Source: Lentisphaerota bacterium
GTDB lineage: Bacteria; Verrucomicrobiota; Lentisphaeria; Victivallales; Victivallaceae
DNA length: 64,000 nucleotides
Assembly (NCBI GenBank): GCA_015061605.1
Contig: SUWH01000015.1
Location: 2,693-66,692 of the forward strand
Reading direction: 5' to 3'
Of this stretch, positions 61,878 to 64,000 are shown piece after piece; the stretch's first letter is position 1, and the number at the start of each line of letters is the position of its first letter. Both the position numbers and the translations under genes were made by a program. A model generated the notes under the pieces. It was not told the origin of the DNA and made no database searches. It saw nothing but the letters and a program-made list of their open reading frames with translations.

Positions 61878-62509
61878 TTGTTTTCTCCATTTTTTTCGCT
61901 TTGCATGGGCGTTTGGCGCGGACCTTGATGCCAGCGGGTTTTGACATTGCGTTTTTGCCAATAGGCTCTTTTTACCTTGAAAAATGCTTCACGGGCATTC
62001 GGTGTATAATCATATTCCTGTCCGATCACGGCGGAATTGAGTAAATCTCCAATTGGTCCTCCGGTCATCCAGATATAATATCGGTTACCTGTCAGTGCAG
62101 TTACCGGATCGGATATTGAAGCATAATCTTTATCTATTTCAAAGTAAACCACTTCCGAGTTATTATATGTCCGGTAATCCGGAGTGTATGTTTCCAAAGG
62201 CGAGTCAATGTGCTGGCAAATGACAAATTTATCTCCGGTCATCAAAAAGTTTTTAACGGAATAAATCACTTCATACCAGTCATAACGCATAACCACATTC
62301 CTTATTGCGGTTCTGCAAGTGGCGTGTTCACTCTTTACCAGATGACACATAACGACATCGCAATTATCCCGGGCAACAACTTCATTGAATACCGCCGCAG
62401 TCTGTTCCACCGTTGCGGTTGGAATACACTCTTCTTCCTCGAAAACAGCACAACCAAACAGCAGCAGACAACCGTAAATTGCGGCAAATGTAAGATAGAG
62501 TTTTTTCAT
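61874..62509 (-). CDS. Hypothetical lipoprotein
   Basis: MKKLYLTFAAIYGCLLLFGCAVFEEEEC (lipobox LLFGC). ATGA overlap with the Fic gene stop. Confidence 0.7.
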   Translation of the reverse strand: MKKLYLTFAAIYGCLLLFGCAVFEEEECIPTATVEQTAAVFNEVVARDNCDVVMCHLVKSEHATCRTAIRNVVMRYDWYEVIYSVKNFLMTGDKFVICQHIDSPLETYTPDYRTYNNSEVVYFEIDKDYASISDPVTALTGNRYYIWMTGGPIGDLLNSAVIGQEYDYTPNAREAFFKVKRAYWQKRNVKTRWHQGPRQTPMQSEKNGENK

Positions 62510-63450
62510 TTGGCAAAGTATCCCCCATTTTTAGGGGCTCCACGGAATTCTATCAAGCCGCTCTGCCGCAACTGCCGCAAATAACGTTCTATTGTCGGAC
62601 GGCTCTTTTGCATTTGCTTCATCAAATCAGGTACCCGCAGACCGGGCTGACTTTTCAGAACCAGTAAAAGTTTTTCACAATCAGGAGTTAATGCAGTTGT
62701 CTGAACAGATGCAGTTTCATTGTCCAACAAACGGAGCAAATCCCGCAAAGTATCGATTTCGCGGTCAATAATAAAGTCAATAAACTTTGCCGGAGTCCGG
62801 TGTGCCGCCTCCAGAAGCGTGATATATTCCGGACGCAAAATCGGCGGGATAATCGCCACCGGATAACCGTGCCGGATCAATATCAAATTCATTAACAGCC
62901 GTGCAACTCTGCCGTTGCCGTCAACAAAAGGATGGATGAAAACAAATCGCTTGTGTACTTCTGCCGCAAGTTTTACCGGATGAATATTTTTTTCATTTTC
63001 ATTCAGCCACCTGATAAATTCATCCATTAAAACTGCTGTTTTTTCCGGGGGCGGCAATGGATAACGACTGCCGCTGATAAAGACTTTCACACGGCGGAAC
63101 TTTCCTGCCTGTTCCGGATTTATCCGCTTATAAAAAAGCTCATGCAGCTTAAGAATATCGGCAACGCTCAAATCTTTATCTACCGCCACAGCATGGATAT
63201 AGTCGTATGCTTCGGCGTGACCAAGTGCTTCATAAACATCGTGCAAAGGTCTGCCTTGAACCGTCAGCCCATCTTCAATAATTACTTTGGTTTCCGATTC
63301 AGTAAGGCTGTTGCCTTCAAGTGCATTGCTTGACCAGGTCAAACCGACCCGGTAGTAGTTGCGCAAAGAAGTCAACGTTTCCGGTGGAAAAGGCCGGAAA
63401 TTATCCAGTTTACTTTTCAGAGCATCGCACAAAGCGGTTTTGTCCATCAT
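62506..63450 (-). CDS. Fic/DOC-family protein (AMPylase-type) with N-terminal inhibitory motif and C-terminal winged-helix domain
   Basis: HPFVDGNGRVARLLMN matches the Fic motif HxFx(D/E)GNGRxxR. SNALEG matches the (S/T)xxxE(G/N) auto-inhibitory motif. The C-terminus SRPTIERYLRQLRQSGLIEFRG is wHTH-like. Confidence 0.9.
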   Translation of the reverse strand: MMDKTALCDALKSKLDNFRPFPPETLTSLRNYYRVGLTWSSNALEGNSLTESETKVIIEDGLTVQGRPLHDVYEALGHAEAYDYIHAVAVDKDLSVADILKLHELFYKRINPEQAGKFRRVKVFISGSRYPLPPPEKTAVLMDEFIRWLNENEKNIHPVKLAAEVHKRFVFIHPFVDGNGRVARLLMNLILIRHGYPVAIIPPILRPEYITLLEAAHRTPAKFIDFIIDREIDTLRDLLRLLDNETASVQTTALTPDCEKLLLVLKSQPGLRVPDLMKQMQKSRPTIERYLRQLRQSGLIEFRGAPKNGGYFAK

Positions 63451-63498
63451 TTTACTCCATCATTTTACTCCATCATTACTCCATCATTACTCCATCAT
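63451..63498 (-). repeat. Four tandem copies (13, 13, 11, 11 nt) of the Fic RBS/start unit ATGATGGAGTA(AA)
   Basis: The plus strand reads TTTACTCCATCAT twice, then TACTCCATCAT twice, directly abutting the Fic start (GTCCATCAT). An inverted copy, TGATGGAGTAAT, lies at 63517-63528. Confidence 0.9.
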
Positions 63499-63505
63499 TA
63501 CTGAT

Positions 63506-63534
63506 AATATAACTGGTGATGGAGTAATTTTCAA
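63506..63534 (-). promoter_or_regulatory. Sigma70-like promoter of the Fic operon, with a repeat-unit copy in its spacer
   Basis: On the minus strand: TTGAAA (63534-63529), 17 nt, TATATT (63511-63506). The spacer is ATTACTCCATCACCAGT, which carries the inverted repeat unit. Confidence 0.5.
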
Positions 63535-63562: not shown

Positions 63563-63706
63563 TTAATTCTCCGGTGAGGTTGTCAGACTGCGGACAAGTT
63601 TGACCGGGTTTGCCGCAGTAATACACTCTTCTTCCTCGAAAACAGCACAGCCGAACAGCAGCAGACAACCGTAAATTGCGGCAAATGCAAGTGAAAAATA
63701 TTTCAT
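63563..63706 (-). pseudogene. 47-codon fragment duplicating the 5' end of the lipoprotein gene at 61874..62509
   Basis: Reads MKYFSLAFAAIYGCLLLFGCAVFEEEECITAANPVKLVRSLTTSPEN then stop. Nucleotides 63596-63690 or so are nearly identical to 62400-62494 or so. Its ATG overlaps the stop of the upstream ORF (ATGA). Confidence 0.6.
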
Positions 63707-64000
63707 TTTTCGCCGCCTGTTTTCTCTCTTTTGAAGTATTTTACTTCACTTGCTTTTTGTTCTCTGGCCCATTGATTTCGCAAAGAAATTGATATTTCTT
63801 TTAAATTTCTGCTTTGAATACCAATTTGGAACTTCACCTTTTCTGAAGACAAAAAAGAAGAAAAATCACTTATGATCTCATTGAATTGCGAACCATCAAA
63901 CTCATAACCGGTAAAAGTCAGTTCGTTTGGCATCATTCCATGAATGTGTGCTTTAATATACCACTTGAGTTTGCCGCGCTCCCAAACGTAGTGCCATGGC
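63703..64000 (-). CDS. Hypothetical protein, probably 5'-partial at the window end
   Basis: ORF track gives 63703..63936. My translation stays open in frame upstream of that ATG to base 64000 (...PWHYVWERGKLKWYIKAHIHGMMPNEL...). Only a weak RBS precedes 63936, so the true start may lie outside the window. Confidence 0.45.
   Translation of the reverse strand, partial: PWHYVWERGKLKWYIKAHIHGMMPNELTFTGYEFDGSQFNEIISDFSSFLSSEKVKFQIGIQSRNLKEISISLRNQWAREQKASEVKYFKREKTGGEK

What the first reader, a model, noticed from the sequence alone, without database searches (positions are those of the whole stretch)
63442..63534. Fic gene preceded by four tandem copies of its own RBS/start-codon unit, plus an inverted copy inside the promoter spacer
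Seen in sequence:
- On the coding (minus) strand the region reads ATGATGGAGTA | ATGATGGAGTA | ATGATGGAGTAAA | ATGATGGAGTAAA | ATGATGGACAAAACC (the Fic start).
- Each unit is a mini-ORF, ATG ATG GAG TAA (MME-stop). Each also contains GGAG, which acts as the Shine-Dalgarno for the next unit and lies 7 nt before the second Fic ATG.
- Unit lengths of 11 and 13 nt indicate slippage.
- An inverted copy (plus strand TGATGGAGTAAT, 63517-63528) occupies the 17-nt spacer of a TTGAAA/TATATT promoter. It can also pair with the array (63486-63497) as a 12-bp stem.
- The Fic protein ends in a winged-helix-like domain.

Inference, three non-exclusive readings:
- The units are iteron-like operators for autoregulation by the Fic wHTH domain.
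- They form a cascade of uORFs that throttles translation of a potentially toxic AMPylase.
- They are a slippage-prone tract that gives copy-number or phase variation.

I do not know of a described Fic locus with this arrangement.
Basis: partly seen in the sequence, partly recalled or inferred. Interest (0 to 1): 0.65.

Follow-up and report, generated by a model that had tools for sequence, protein, structure and literature searches.

The report
Self-operator array of a Fic enzyme
The repeats in front of this Fic (protein-AMPylating) gene are most likely binding sites for the enzyme's own DNA-binding tail, used to shut off its own promoter as shown for the Yersinia Fic protein CccR; this strain has 4 direct copies where relatives have 2, and related genes carry matching 3-site arrays, some inside their own coding sequence.

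Summary
On the minus strand, a TTGAAA-17-TATATT promoter holds an inverted TACTCCATCA in its spacer. Four direct ATGATGGAGTA(AA) units follow, then the Fic start ATGATGGAC.

The best reading is a negative autoregulatory operator for the C-terminal winged helix (wHTH) of this Fic.
- Every relative from 64 to 98% identity whose DNA I read keeps motif sites on its own promoter, though the neighbouring genes differ.
- The inverted pair always brackets the -10 box.
- In the 64-68% relatives the sites lie 26-29 nt upstream of a separate ribosome-binding site, which argues against the uORF reading.
- Distant relatives carry different motifs, and the motif changes together with the wHTH recognition helix.
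- Homologs without a wHTH lack such arrays.
- CccR gives experimental precedent: two 10-bp inverted repeats around -35/-10.

The four-copy state is a strain-specific expansion. Close relatives have two direct copies, spaced 11+13 nt or probably 13+13 nt. I found no 3-copy allele and could not test variation within a sample.

Unexpectedly, many family members carry three cognate sites inside their own ORF, in the inter-domain linker, or at the stop codon. I found no paper describing this.

Verdict: a new variant of a known kind. No binding or expression experiment was possible.

The parts
63529..63534 (-). -35 hexamer TTGAAA of the predicted Fic promoter
   Evidence: Consensus scan gives TTGAAA-17-TATATT, 10 of 12 matches. 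The hexamers are conserved in relatives as TTGAAA or TTGCAT.
63517..63526 (+). Site O_L: inverted copy of the 10-bp motif (TGATGGAGTA on the plus strand) inside the promoter spacer
   Evidence: A motif copy is present at the same place, 2-3 nt after the -35, in every relative from 64 to 98% identity whose upstream DNA was read. It is exact in most and has 1 mismatch in L173 and L174.
63506..63511 (-). -10 hexamer TATATT, at the centre of the inverted pair O_L / unit 1
   Evidence: (I2) shows 21-nt arms at 63486-63506 and 63508-63528.
63488..63498 (-). Direct unit 1 (ATGATGGAGTA), at about the predicted transcription start. It pairs with O_L at 29 bp centre to centre.
   Evidence: Relatives have GTGATGGAGTA here.
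63477..63487 (-). Direct unit 2 (ATGATGGAGTA, 11 nt). The extra 11-nt unit relative to the 2-copy alleles.
   Evidence: compared with L002, L005 and L006.
63464..63476 (-). Direct unit 3 (ATGATGGAGTAAA, 13 nt). The extra 13-nt unit relative to the 2-copy alleles.
   Evidence: Public contigs lack 24 or 22 nt here.
63451..63463 (-). Direct unit 4 (ATGATGGAGTAAA). Its GGAG is the likely Shine-Dalgarno sequence for Fic.
   Evidence: GGAG lies 4 and 7 nt before the two ATGs.
63442..63450 (-). Degenerate fifth copy ATGATGGAC holding both candidate Fic start codons. Homologs align best to the second ATG, at 63447.
   Evidence: P0001 and other close relatives are called from MDKT.
62506..63450 (-). 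Fic-wHTH gene (314 aa). Class II Fic with inhibitory motif SNALEG (63313-63330) and catalytic motif HPFVDGNGRVAR (62899-62934).
   Evidence: Pfam Fic E 1e-24. PADLOC SoFic model E 8e-36. PDB FICD E 3e-39. AF2 model and Foldseek. Coordinates.
62509..62682 (-). [quoted passage not shown] The predicted recognition helix RPTIERYLRQLRQ is at 62563-62601.
   Evidence: Pfam HTH_5/MarR hits. AF2 secondary structure: H255-266, H272-279, H283-295, then two strands. The helix type covaries with the DNA motif.
63610..63708 (-). Upstream copy of a 99-nt repeat (87% identical to 62413-62511). It encodes the lipoprotein-like signal peptide of a truncated 47-aa ORF. It is left-flank context for the Fic cassette, not part of the operator.
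   Evidence: (D1).
62413..62511 (-). Downstream copy of the 99-nt repeat. It is the 5' end of the full 211-aa lipoprotein-like gene, whose ATG overlaps the Fic stop (ATGA).
   Evidence: (D1).

Best explanation
The repeats are a composite operator for negative autoregulation of a Fic-wHTH enzyme by its own C-terminal winged-helix domain.

Shown by sequence: a sigma-70-type promoter (TTGAAA-17-TATATT) carries one 10-bp site, TACTCCATCA, in its spacer. The same site in the opposite orientation (TGATGGAGTA) starts about where transcription should start. The pair therefore brackets the -10 hexamer at 29 bp centre to centre.

Inferred: a Fic dimer with widely separated wHTH domains binds this pair, blocks RNA polymerase and keeps a potentially toxic AMPylase at a low, self-limited level.

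Further direct copies follow at 11-13-bp steps and run across the 5' UTR DNA to the start codon. They probably add cooperative or alternative binding positions. Relatives have three sites in all, one inverted and two direct. In this strain one 11-nt and one 13-nt unit were duplicated, giving five full sites and a 5' UTR 24 nt longer.

The mini-ORFs and the GGAG are by-products of the DNA motif. The last GGAG is simply used as the gene's Shine-Dalgarno sequence.

The promoter, operator and gene move together as one cassette between genomic contexts.
For: 1. Conservation with rearrangement.
- The motif is on the promoter of every relative whose upstream DNA I read.
- 97-98% identity (L002, L005, L006) and 83% identity (L003, L004, L007-L014): one inverted copy plus two direct copies.
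- 76% identity (L165, L166): the same layout, with different spacers and start codons.
- 64-68% identity (L167-L173, L175): one site in the spacer plus an 18-bp palindrome, or near-palindrome, TACTCCATC-GATGGAGTA directly after the -10. A separate GGAG and ATG lie 26-29 nt further on.

2. The cis element travels with the gene. In seven 83%-identity contexts, similarity covers only about 100 nt upstream, the ORF, and 20-40 nt downstream.

3. Specificity covariation.
- TGATGGAGTA goes with helix KSRPT[IV]ER.
- TGGCGGTGTAAA (Bacteroidales) goes with RSLRTTQR.
- TGGCGGTATAAA (Fibrobacter) goes with SLRTAQR.
- GAGGGAGTAAA goes with SVQ[TS]VER.
- TGATAGAGTAAA goes with SIPTVSR.
- GATACTGTAAA goes with SRPTIAR.
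- Sources.

4. Association with the domain. At least 3 copies of a 10-mer occur within 160 nt upstream in 38 of 46 wHTH-bearing loci. The figure is 2 of 89 for homologs without a wHTH.

5. The motif is confined to this promoter. All five exact 10-mers in the 64 kb are here.

6. Experimental precedent.
- CccR, a class II Fic with a wHTH, represses its own promoter. Its footprinted site is AGATAATCAT-N26-ATGATAATCT near -35/-10, and binding needs the dimer (PMC9755527).
- SoFic binds its own promoter DNA as a dimer.
- My AF2 model aligns over about 340 columns to CccR (7xux), SoFic (3eqx) and CbFic2 (8cil).

7. No RNA-level signal. The 5' UTR from the predicted start is unstructured (z +0.55) and has no Rfam match.
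Against: - No binding, footprint, reporter or transcription-start data exist for this protein.
- The metatranscriptome contigs run past the promoter, so they give no start site and could contain DNA.
- The covariation follows clades, so phylogeny confounds it.
- The half-site spacing (17-19 bp between 10-mers) differs from CccR (26 bp). The protein lacks the DUF4172 N-terminal domain of CccR, SoFic and CbFic2, so the dimer geometry is unknown.
- In other family members the cognate 3-site array lies inside the ORF or at the stop codon, with no copy at the promoter. Promoter occlusion therefore cannot be the only role of such sites in the family.
- Direct repeats are not what a simple two-fold symmetric dimer would prefer.
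Confidence: 0.75

Rival explanations
1. Translational device. The units are a cascade of mini-ORFs (AUG AUG GAG UAA), each with its own GGAG. They capture ribosomes and throttle or couple translation of a toxic AMPylase.
For: Every unit does contain GGAG, ATG(ATG) and TAA. The last stop lies 1 nt before the Fic ATG. In the 83% clade the second unit's ORF ends in a TGA that overlaps the Fic ATG. The predicted 5' UTR is unstructured, so these sites would be accessible.
Against: The same motif is conserved in the promoter spacer in inverted orientation, outside the predicted mRNA. In the 64-68% clade the sites lie 26-29 nt upstream of an independent ribosome-binding site and form a DNA palindrome. 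In L165 the second unit (TTGATGGAGTATTTG...) carries no stop of its own, unlike the window's units. In distant relatives, arrays of other motifs without an ATG take the same place. The coding features are therefore not what is conserved.
Confidence: 0.1
2. Contingency tract. The 11/13-nt units are kept because slippage changes copy number and so switches or tunes Fic expression between cells (phase or rheostat variation).
For: Length alleles exist among Fic genes 97-100% identical. These are 11+13 (L002, L005, L006, X6, X21, X29), a form 22 nt shorter than the window that is probably 13+13 (X8, X11, X22, X6), and 11+11+13+13 (window, L001, X1-X4). Several assemblies break inside the array.
Against: Only two copy numbers were seen in about 15 assemblies, with no 3-copy intermediate. 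The tract lies after the -10 and before the start codon, so copy number changes neither promoter spacing nor reading frame. The 83%, 76% and 64-68% clades keep exactly three sites without variation. Contig breaks are expected for any repeat longer than the assembler's word. Heterogeneity within a sample could not be tested, since only contigs were available.
Confidence: 0.12
3. The sites are bound by some other host regulator, not by the Fic protein itself.
For: No direct binding data exist. wHTH specificity cannot be read from sequence.
Against: Neighbouring genes differ between contexts, and only the Fic gene is constant next to the sites. The motif type changes together with the recognition helix of the Fic wHTH. 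Homologs without the wHTH lack arrays. No other exact site occurs in the 64 kb.
Confidence: 0.06
4. Docking platform rather than, or in addition to, a promoter operator. The array is a cis site that collects Fic molecules on the DNA of their own locus. There it controls their oligomeric state and AMPylation/deAMPylation activity, or blocks elongating RNA polymerase whichever promoter is used.
For: In many relatives the three cognate sites sit in the linker-coding part of the ORF or across the stop codon. No promoter copy was found there, and in one case the gene is operonic. Identical codons in all in-ORF copies indicate constraint at the DNA level. Site spacings are near multiples of a helical turn (11-12, 20-24, 33). 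DNA binding changes the activity of CbFic2, and dimerisation controls SoFic.
Against: In the window lineage all sites are on the promoter, where simple repression suffices. No experiment links DNA binding to activity in this subfamily. The in-ORF copies could be auxiliary operators for looping, as lac O2 is.
Confidence: 0.2

Closest known systems
CccR of Yersinia pseudotuberculosis (class II Fic toxin with C-terminal wHTH; PDB 7XUX; Nat Commun 2022, PMC9755527)
   Same: A Fic AMPylase with an N-terminal inhibitory motif and a C-terminal wHTH. Its operator is two 10-bp inverted repeats with an unusually long spacer, placed around -35/-10 of its own promoter. Negative autoregulation was shown by lacZ fusion, EMSA, DNase footprinting and ITC. 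My model aligns with 7xux over about 340 columns.
   Different: The spacer between half-sites is 17-19 bp here against 26 bp. Here, extra direct copies follow at 11-13 bp and reach the start codon, and their number differs between strains. The Fic core here is nearest to FICD and has no DUF4172 Pfam hit. CccR is a T6SS effector; nothing suggests secretion here. Binding is untested here.
SoFic (Shewanella oneidensis SO_4266; PDB 3EQX) and the SoFic single-gene anti-phage defence family
   Same: Class II Fic plus wHTH. The PADLOC SoFic model matches residues 40-304 at E 8e-36. SoFic binds its own promoter DNA as a dimer, within 100 bp of the start.
   Different: Sequence similarity to SoFic itself is weak (E 4e-8). 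SoFic's site has not been mapped at base resolution. EcSofic has a small downstream antitoxin, AS1, whereas here the downstream gene is a 211-aa lipoprotein-like ORF. Defence activity is untested.
Type II toxin-antitoxin operators (for example phd-doc, where Doc is a Fido-fold toxin)
   Same: A potentially toxic Fido-fold enzyme whose expression is limited by a DNA-binding module acting on repeated sites over its own promoter. Kinch et al. 2009 predicted this role for HTH-Fic fusions.
   Different: Here the inhibitory helix, the toxin and the DNA-binding domain are one polypeptide, with no separate antitoxin gene. Conditional cooperativity is not implied.
Iteron arrays of theta-replicating plasmids (wHTH Rep proteins binding direct repeats of about 20 bp at about 22-bp spacing next to rep)
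   Same: Formal resemblance only: direct repeats in helical phase next to, or upstream of, a gene for a wHTH protein. The Bacteroidales relatives have three repeats at 20-23 bp.
   Different: There is no Rep protein. No origin features were looked for. The loci are on MAG contigs of tens to hundreds of kb. No wHTH-bearing homolog was found on PLSDB plasmids. Units here are 11-13 bp.
Auxiliary intragenic operators and roadblocks (lac O2 inside lacZ; CcpA/CodY roadblock sites)
   Same: A model for the in-ORF and stop-codon arrays seen in relatives: cognate repressor sites inside the regulated gene. This comparison rests on my own knowledge of those systems.
   Different: Those are single sites for a separate regulator. 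Here three sites for the encoded protein's own domain are written into its own linker codons. That is not the arrangement in the window.

Membership tests
Fic/Fido AMPylase, class II | Catalytic motif HPFx[D/E]GN[G/K]R | tested here: met
   HPFVDGNGRVAR at residues 173-184. Pfam Fic E 1e-24, above the gathering score.
Fic/Fido AMPylase, class II | Inhibitory motif [S/T]xxxE[G/N] on a helix N-terminal to the Fic core, in the same chain | tested here: met
   SNALEG at residues 41-46. It is invariant in 61 homologs. The AF2 confidence for this segment is low.
Fic/Fido AMPylase, class II | AMP transfer to a protein target | not testable with these tools
   No biochemical assay was possible. The target is unknown.
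Fic-wHTH autorepressors (CccR / SoFic type) | [quoted passage not shown] | tested here: met
   HTH_5 E 6e-7 and MarR-type hits at residues 260-307. The AF2 model shows three helices plus a two-strand wing. Foldseek gives full-length alignments to 7xux, 3eqx and 8cil.
Fic-wHTH autorepressors (CccR / SoFic type) | Inverted 10-bp repeats with a long spacer on the gene's own -35/-10 region | tested here: met
   TACTCCATCA-N19-TGATGGAGTA brackets the -10. The arrangement is conserved in relatives.
Fic-wHTH autorepressors (CccR / SoFic type) | N-terminal DUF4172 or dimerisation-helix domain, as in SoFic, CbFic2 and CccR | tested here: not met
   No DUF4172 Pfam hit. The core is closest to FICD. N-terminal helices 3-15 and 22-40 exist in the model, but dimerisation was not assessed.
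Fic-wHTH autorepressors (CccR / SoFic type) | The protein binds the sites and represses its own transcription | not testable with these tools
   Only comparative support exists: motif-helix covariation and association with the presence of the wHTH.
SoFic anti-phage defence system | Match to the defence-system protein model | tested here: met
   PADLOC PDLC03963 SoFic, E 8.4e-36, residues 40-304. There is no curated cut-off.
SoFic anti-phage defence system | Protection against phage (abortive infection) | not testable with these tools
   No assay was possible. The neighbouring genes have no Pfam hits and show no defence-island signature.
Repeat-mediated phase variation (contingency locus) | The tract lies in the -35/-10 spacer or in the ORF, so copy number switches expression | tested here: not met
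   The units lie between the -10 and the start codon.
Repeat-mediated phase variation (contingency locus) | Copy number varies between and within populations | tested here: inconclusive
   Variation between strains: 2 versus 4 copies, and 11- versus 13-nt spacing. Variation within a sample was not testable, because only Logan contigs were available.
Regulatory uORF / leader peptide | The uORF (start, stop or peptide) is conserved in homologous leaders | tested here: not met
   The stop is missing from the second unit in L165. The sites are detached from the ribosome-binding site in the 64-68% clade. One conserved copy lies outside the mRNA.
Plasmid iterons | An adjacent Rep initiator and a plasmid replicon context | tested here: not met
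   The adjacent gene is Fic, not Rep. The loci are on MAG contigs of 17-322 kb. No wHTH-bearing homolog is present in PLSDB.

The most novel reading that the evidence does not exclude
The sites may be more than a promoter operator.

Across this Fic-wHTH family, each protein appears to carry a portable array of three cognate wHTH binding sites in helical phase. The motif co-evolves with the recognition helix. The array can sit on the promoter (as in this window), be written into the codons of the protein's own inter-domain linker (as GGVN, EGVN, DRVN, DTVN or DGV peptide triplets), or straddle the stop codon.

That would make it a self-addressed docking element. It could give promoter-independent autoregulation by roadblock or looping wherever the mobile gene lands. 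Alternatively it could park the AMPylase on its own locus in a controlled oligomeric state until a trigger such as phage infection releases it.

On this view the 2-to-4 expansion in the window strain changes docking capacity.
Probability: 0.25. Interest if true: 0.8.

Novelty: new variant of a known kind. Interest (0 to 1): 0.5.

Why it matters
Fic AMPylases are toxins, effectors and anti-phage defence proteins, and their activity must be held in check. Transcriptional self-repression by a fused wHTH has been shown for only one protein, CccR. Binding to own-promoter DNA has been shown for a second, SoFic.

This locus and its relatives extend that logic to a large FICD-like branch from gut bacteria. 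They provide about six natural pairs of motif and recognition helix, which makes the DNA-recognition code of the domain directly testable.

The comparison also shows natural alleles with 2 or 4 direct sites and with 11- or 13-bp spacing. These are ready-made material for measuring how operator multiplicity sets the level of a toxic enzyme.

The unexpected in-ORF and stop-codon arrays, if functional, would be an unusual case of a protein carrying its own binding sites inside its coding sequence.

Tried and rejected
- RNA-level explanations. The predicted 5' UTR folds no better than shuffles (z +0.55), and Rfam gives no match at E up to 1. The strong hairpin appears only if the promoter itself is transcribed (z -3.3). 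That is a trivial consequence of the inverted repeat.
- Regulon search. There are no further exact sites in the 64 kb. Three one-mismatch singles are at chance level.
- Transcription-start mapping from metatranscriptomes. The contigs run through the promoter, so they are uninformative.
- Heterogeneity at read level. All runs are held only as assembled contigs. Four of the runs tried gave no usable coverage.
- Plasmid or phage link. PLSDB holds only wHTH-less Fic cores, none covering 80% of the query. Phage collections were not searched.
- A broader repeat statistic over the whole gene plus flanks was too permissive. It flagged 22 of 97 wHTH-less controls, so I rely on the upstream-only test and on explicit motifs.
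- The first attempt at that script timed out.
- Assembly artefact was rejected, because independent assemblies reproduce the 4-copy form.
- The iteron/replicon reading was rejected (see membership test).
- Literature searches for the motifs, or for intragenic operators in Fic genes, found nothing relevant.
Full report
**1. What is in the sequence**

Read on the minus strand, 63534-63442 is TTGAAA | AT TACTCCATCA CCAGT | TATATT | ATCAGTA | ATGATGGAGTA | ATGATGGAGTA | ATGATGGAGTAAA | ATGATGGAGTAAA | ATGATGGAC....

- The hexamers score 10 of 12 against the sigma-70 consensus, with a 17-nt spacer.
- Tandem Repeats Finder reports 4.7 copies of period 11.
- The 11-mer with at most one mismatch occurs five times in 64 kb, all here. 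None of 100 shuffles reached five.
- All five exact copies of the 10-bp core TGATGGAGTA are here.
- The spacer copy is inverted. Together with unit 1 it forms a 21-nt-arm inverted repeat centred on the -10 box.
- The ORF 62506-63450 (minus strand) encodes 314 aa. [quoted passage not shown]
- The 4-copy sequence recurs in a JGI contig (L001) and in contigs of four public runs.

**2. Organism and protein**

The closest genomes are Lentisphaeria/Victivallaceae MAGs from ruminant gut.

- The Fic core is nearest, among solved structures, to human FICD (E 3e-39; TM 0.67-0.69).
- An AlphaFold model (pLDDT 80.9) shows a canonical wHTH with recognition helix RPTIERYLRQLRQ.
- The whole model aligns over about 340 columns with the wHTH-bearing Fic proteins SoFic (3eqx), CbFic2 (8cil) and CccR (7xux).
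- The PADLOC model of the SoFic defence protein matches at E 8e-36.

**3. Comparative anatomy of the promoter**

I read the DNA upstream of homologs at falling identity.

| Identity | Loci | Layout |
|---|---|---|
| 97-98% | L002, L005, L006 | Same promoter and inverted copy, but only two direct units: GTGATGGAGTA-ATGATGGAGTAAA-ATGATGGAC |
| 83% | twelve loci, different neighbours | TTGAAA-AA TACTCCATCA TGGGT-TATATT-AATCC-GTGATGGAGTA-ATGATGGAGTA-TTTTCT-ATGAGT |
| 76% | L165, L166 | Same plan. The second unit is TTGATGGAGTA, or the unit spacing is 12 nt |
| 64-68% | L167-L173, L175 | One site in the spacer, then directly after the -10 an 18-bp palindrome TACTCCATCGATGGAGTA (one mismatch in L175), then 26-29 nt with a separate GGAG and ATG |
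| 65% | L174 | A degenerate inverted pair around the -10, plus three good sites inside the ORF |

The 10-bp site and its position on the promoter are therefore conserved. Orientation, spacing, and the relation to the ribosome-binding site and start codon are not. Three sites in total is the norm. The window is the only case with five.

In the 83% clade, similarity between seven contexts covers only about 100 nt upstream, the ORF, and 20-40 nt downstream. The promoter, operator and gene therefore move as one cassette.

**4. Link to the wHTH**

More distant homologs (49-56% identity; Bacteroidales, Fibrobacter) have no TGATGGAGTA. They have three or four direct copies of TGGCGGTGTAAA (Fibrobacter: TGGCGGTATAAA) at 20-23-bp spacing upstream.

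The recognition helix changes with the motif:

| Motif | Recognition helix |
|---|---|
| TGATGGAGTA | KSRPT[IV]ER |
| TGGCGGTGTAAA | RSLRTTQR |
| TGGCGGTATAAA (Fibrobacter) | SLRTAQR |
| GATACTGTAAA | SRPTIAR |
| GAGGGAGTAAA | SVQ[TS]VER |
| TGATAGAGTAAA | SIPTVSR |

- In 120 homologous proteins, the linker peptide class sorts almost perfectly with helix type: 25 of 26, 24 of 24 and 3 of 3. The peptide class is a proxy for in-ORF sites.
- At least 3 copies of a 10-mer occur within 160 nt upstream in 38 of 46 distinct wHTH-bearing loci. The figure is 2 of 89 for homologs that end before the wHTH.

These associations follow clades and are not phylogenetically independent. Even so, they point the same way as the cassette argument: the binder is the Fic protein's own wHTH.

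**5. Precedent**

- CccR of Y. pseudotuberculosis, a class II Fic with a C-terminal HTH, represses its own promoter. DNase footprinting maps AGATAATCAT-N26-ATGATAATCT near -35/-10, and binding needs the dimer.
- SoFic binds its own promoter DNA as a dimer.
- DNA binding stimulates CbFic2.
- Kinch et al. predicted autoregulation for HTH-Fic fusions in 2009.

The window's inverted pair (10-bp half-sites with 19 bp between them, straddling the -10) is the same design.

**6. Mechanism proposed**

Shown: the site layout, its conservation, and its covariation with the helix.

Inferred: a Fic dimer binds O_L and unit 1 and occludes the -10 box and the transcription start. The further units, at roughly one helical turn, add cooperative or alternative positions. 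The result is negative feedback on a potentially toxic enzyme.

The GGAG of the last unit doubles as the Shine-Dalgarno sequence. Homologs align to the second ATG, at 63447.

**7. The other two readings**

*uORF cascade.* The ATG, GAG and TAA are part of the DNA motif. The conserved inverted copy lies outside the predicted mRNA. The 64-68% clade separates the sites from the ribosome-binding site, and in L165 the second unit has no stop of its own. A side effect on translation in this strain is possible but untested.

*Slippage.* Among 97-100% identical genes I found three forms:
- 11+13 (24 nt shorter): L002, L005, L006 and contigs in X6, X21 and X29.
- A form 22 nt shorter, best explained as 13+13: X8, X11, X22 and a second X6 contig.
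- 11+11+13+13: window, L001 and X1-X4.

The tract therefore does change by whole units and by the AA step. However, only two copy numbers were seen. The four-copy form may come from one cohort. The tract is not where copy number would flip a promoter or a reading frame. Heterogeneity within a sample could not be examined, because every run is held as contigs.

**8. Unexpected family-wide feature**

In several relatives the three cognate sites are not upstream.

- In L024, L034, L035 and L041 they start on the last codons and stop codon (GTGGCGGTGTAA) and continue downstream towards a convergent gene.
- In L022, L029 and L180-182 they lie in the linker between the Fic and wHTH domains and encode GGVN/GGVK.
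- In L028 and L036, GATACTGTAAAT x3 encodes DTVN.
- In L177, GAGGGAGTAAA x3 encodes EGVN.
- In L178, TGATAGAGTAAAT x2 plus ATGATGGAGTAAAC encodes DRVN/DGVN.
- In L174, GATGGAGTAA-type sites encode DGV.
- About half of 120 homologs show such peptide triplets.
- Codon choice is identical in all copies. GGC GGT GTA is used in all nine copies across three distant genes, with a per-gene probability of 10^-2.4 to 10^-4.8.
- The same DNA word occurs non-coding in other loci, so the constraint is on the DNA.
- Spacings are 11-12, 20-24 or 33 bp, near whole helical turns.

Literature searches found no description of this. It shows that promoter occlusion cannot be the whole story for the family. Roadblock, looping or docking roles are open. 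It does not change the reading for the window, where all sites are on the promoter.

**9. Verdict**

This is a real feature. It is most likely the autoregulatory operator of a Fic-wHTH enzyme, with a strain-specific expansion from two to four direct sites.

It is a new variant of a known kind. The new elements relative to the CccR type are the composite inverted-plus-direct layout, the natural alleles, and a different Fic subfamily.

Confidence in the operator reading is about 0.75. Nothing has been tested biochemically.

Noticed in passing
window 62413-62511 and 63610-63708: A 99-nt direct repeat (87% identical) flanks the Fic cassette. It encodes the lipoprotein-like signal peptide M..AAIYGCLLLFGCAVFEEEECI of a truncated 47-aa ORF upstream and of the full 211-aa ORF downstream. 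In public runs this stretch has 5-10 times the depth of its flanks, and many contigs break there. In L002, L005 and L006 the upstream remnant shares only its first ~28 nt. This suggests that the Fic cassette was inserted into, or recombined within, a multi-copy gene family.
   Followed up: partly
window 62506-62509; L001 224-4993: The Fic stop overlaps the start of the downstream gene (ATGA). The genes upstream and downstream in L001 form a chain of 4-nt overlaps. None of them has a Pfam hit. The Fic cassette, with its own promoter, appears to interrupt a tightly coupled operon.
   Followed up: partly
L019-L021, L023, L025-L027, L030-L033, L038-L040, L073, L085-L093; L017/L018: Bacteroidales and Fibrobacter Fic-wHTH genes (49-56% identity) carry 3-4 direct TGGCGGT[GA]TAAA repeats at 20-23-bp spacing. 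The arrays sit either about 25-70 or about 70-130 nt upstream of the start. In some, the repeat plus its flank reads TAAATTTG, like the Bacteroidetes -7 promoter box.
   Followed up: partly
L022 2185-2248; L029 1373-1415; L028/L036 linker; L174 1790-1831; L177, L178, L180-L182 linker: Three cognate DNA sites lie inside the ORF, in the Fic-wHTH linker. They are translated as GGVN, DTVN, DGV, EGVN or DRVN triplets, with identical codons in every copy. About half of 120 homologous proteins show such triplets.
   Followed up: partly
L034 3427-3478 (also L024, L035, L041): The three-site TGGCGGTGTAAA array begins on the last codons and stop codon of the Fic gene and extends downstream towards a convergent gene. 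It is therefore not upstream of any co-directional ORF.
   Followed up: partly
P0007 (318 aa): A mosaic protein. Its first ~35 residues, and the called N-terminal extension MEYFI, match the 76% lineage (L166-like). The rest matches the window lineage. This suggests recombination that swaps the promoter and N-terminal module between Fic cassettes.
   Followed up: no
L042-L164 (Bacillota and others): About 100 homologs of 240-262 aa end right after the Fic core, with no wHTH. They show no upstream repeat arrays. They served as the natural control set.
   Followed up: yes
L167-L172, 49-1185: In the 68% clade a second, different Fic gene (378 aa, Fic plus Fic-like_C) lies about 300 nt upstream of the Fic-wHTH gene on the same strand.
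   Followed up: no
window 62506-63450: Among solved structures, this bacterial Fic core is closest to human FICD/HYPE (34% identity over about 240 columns), not to bacterial Fic toxins.
   Followed up: no
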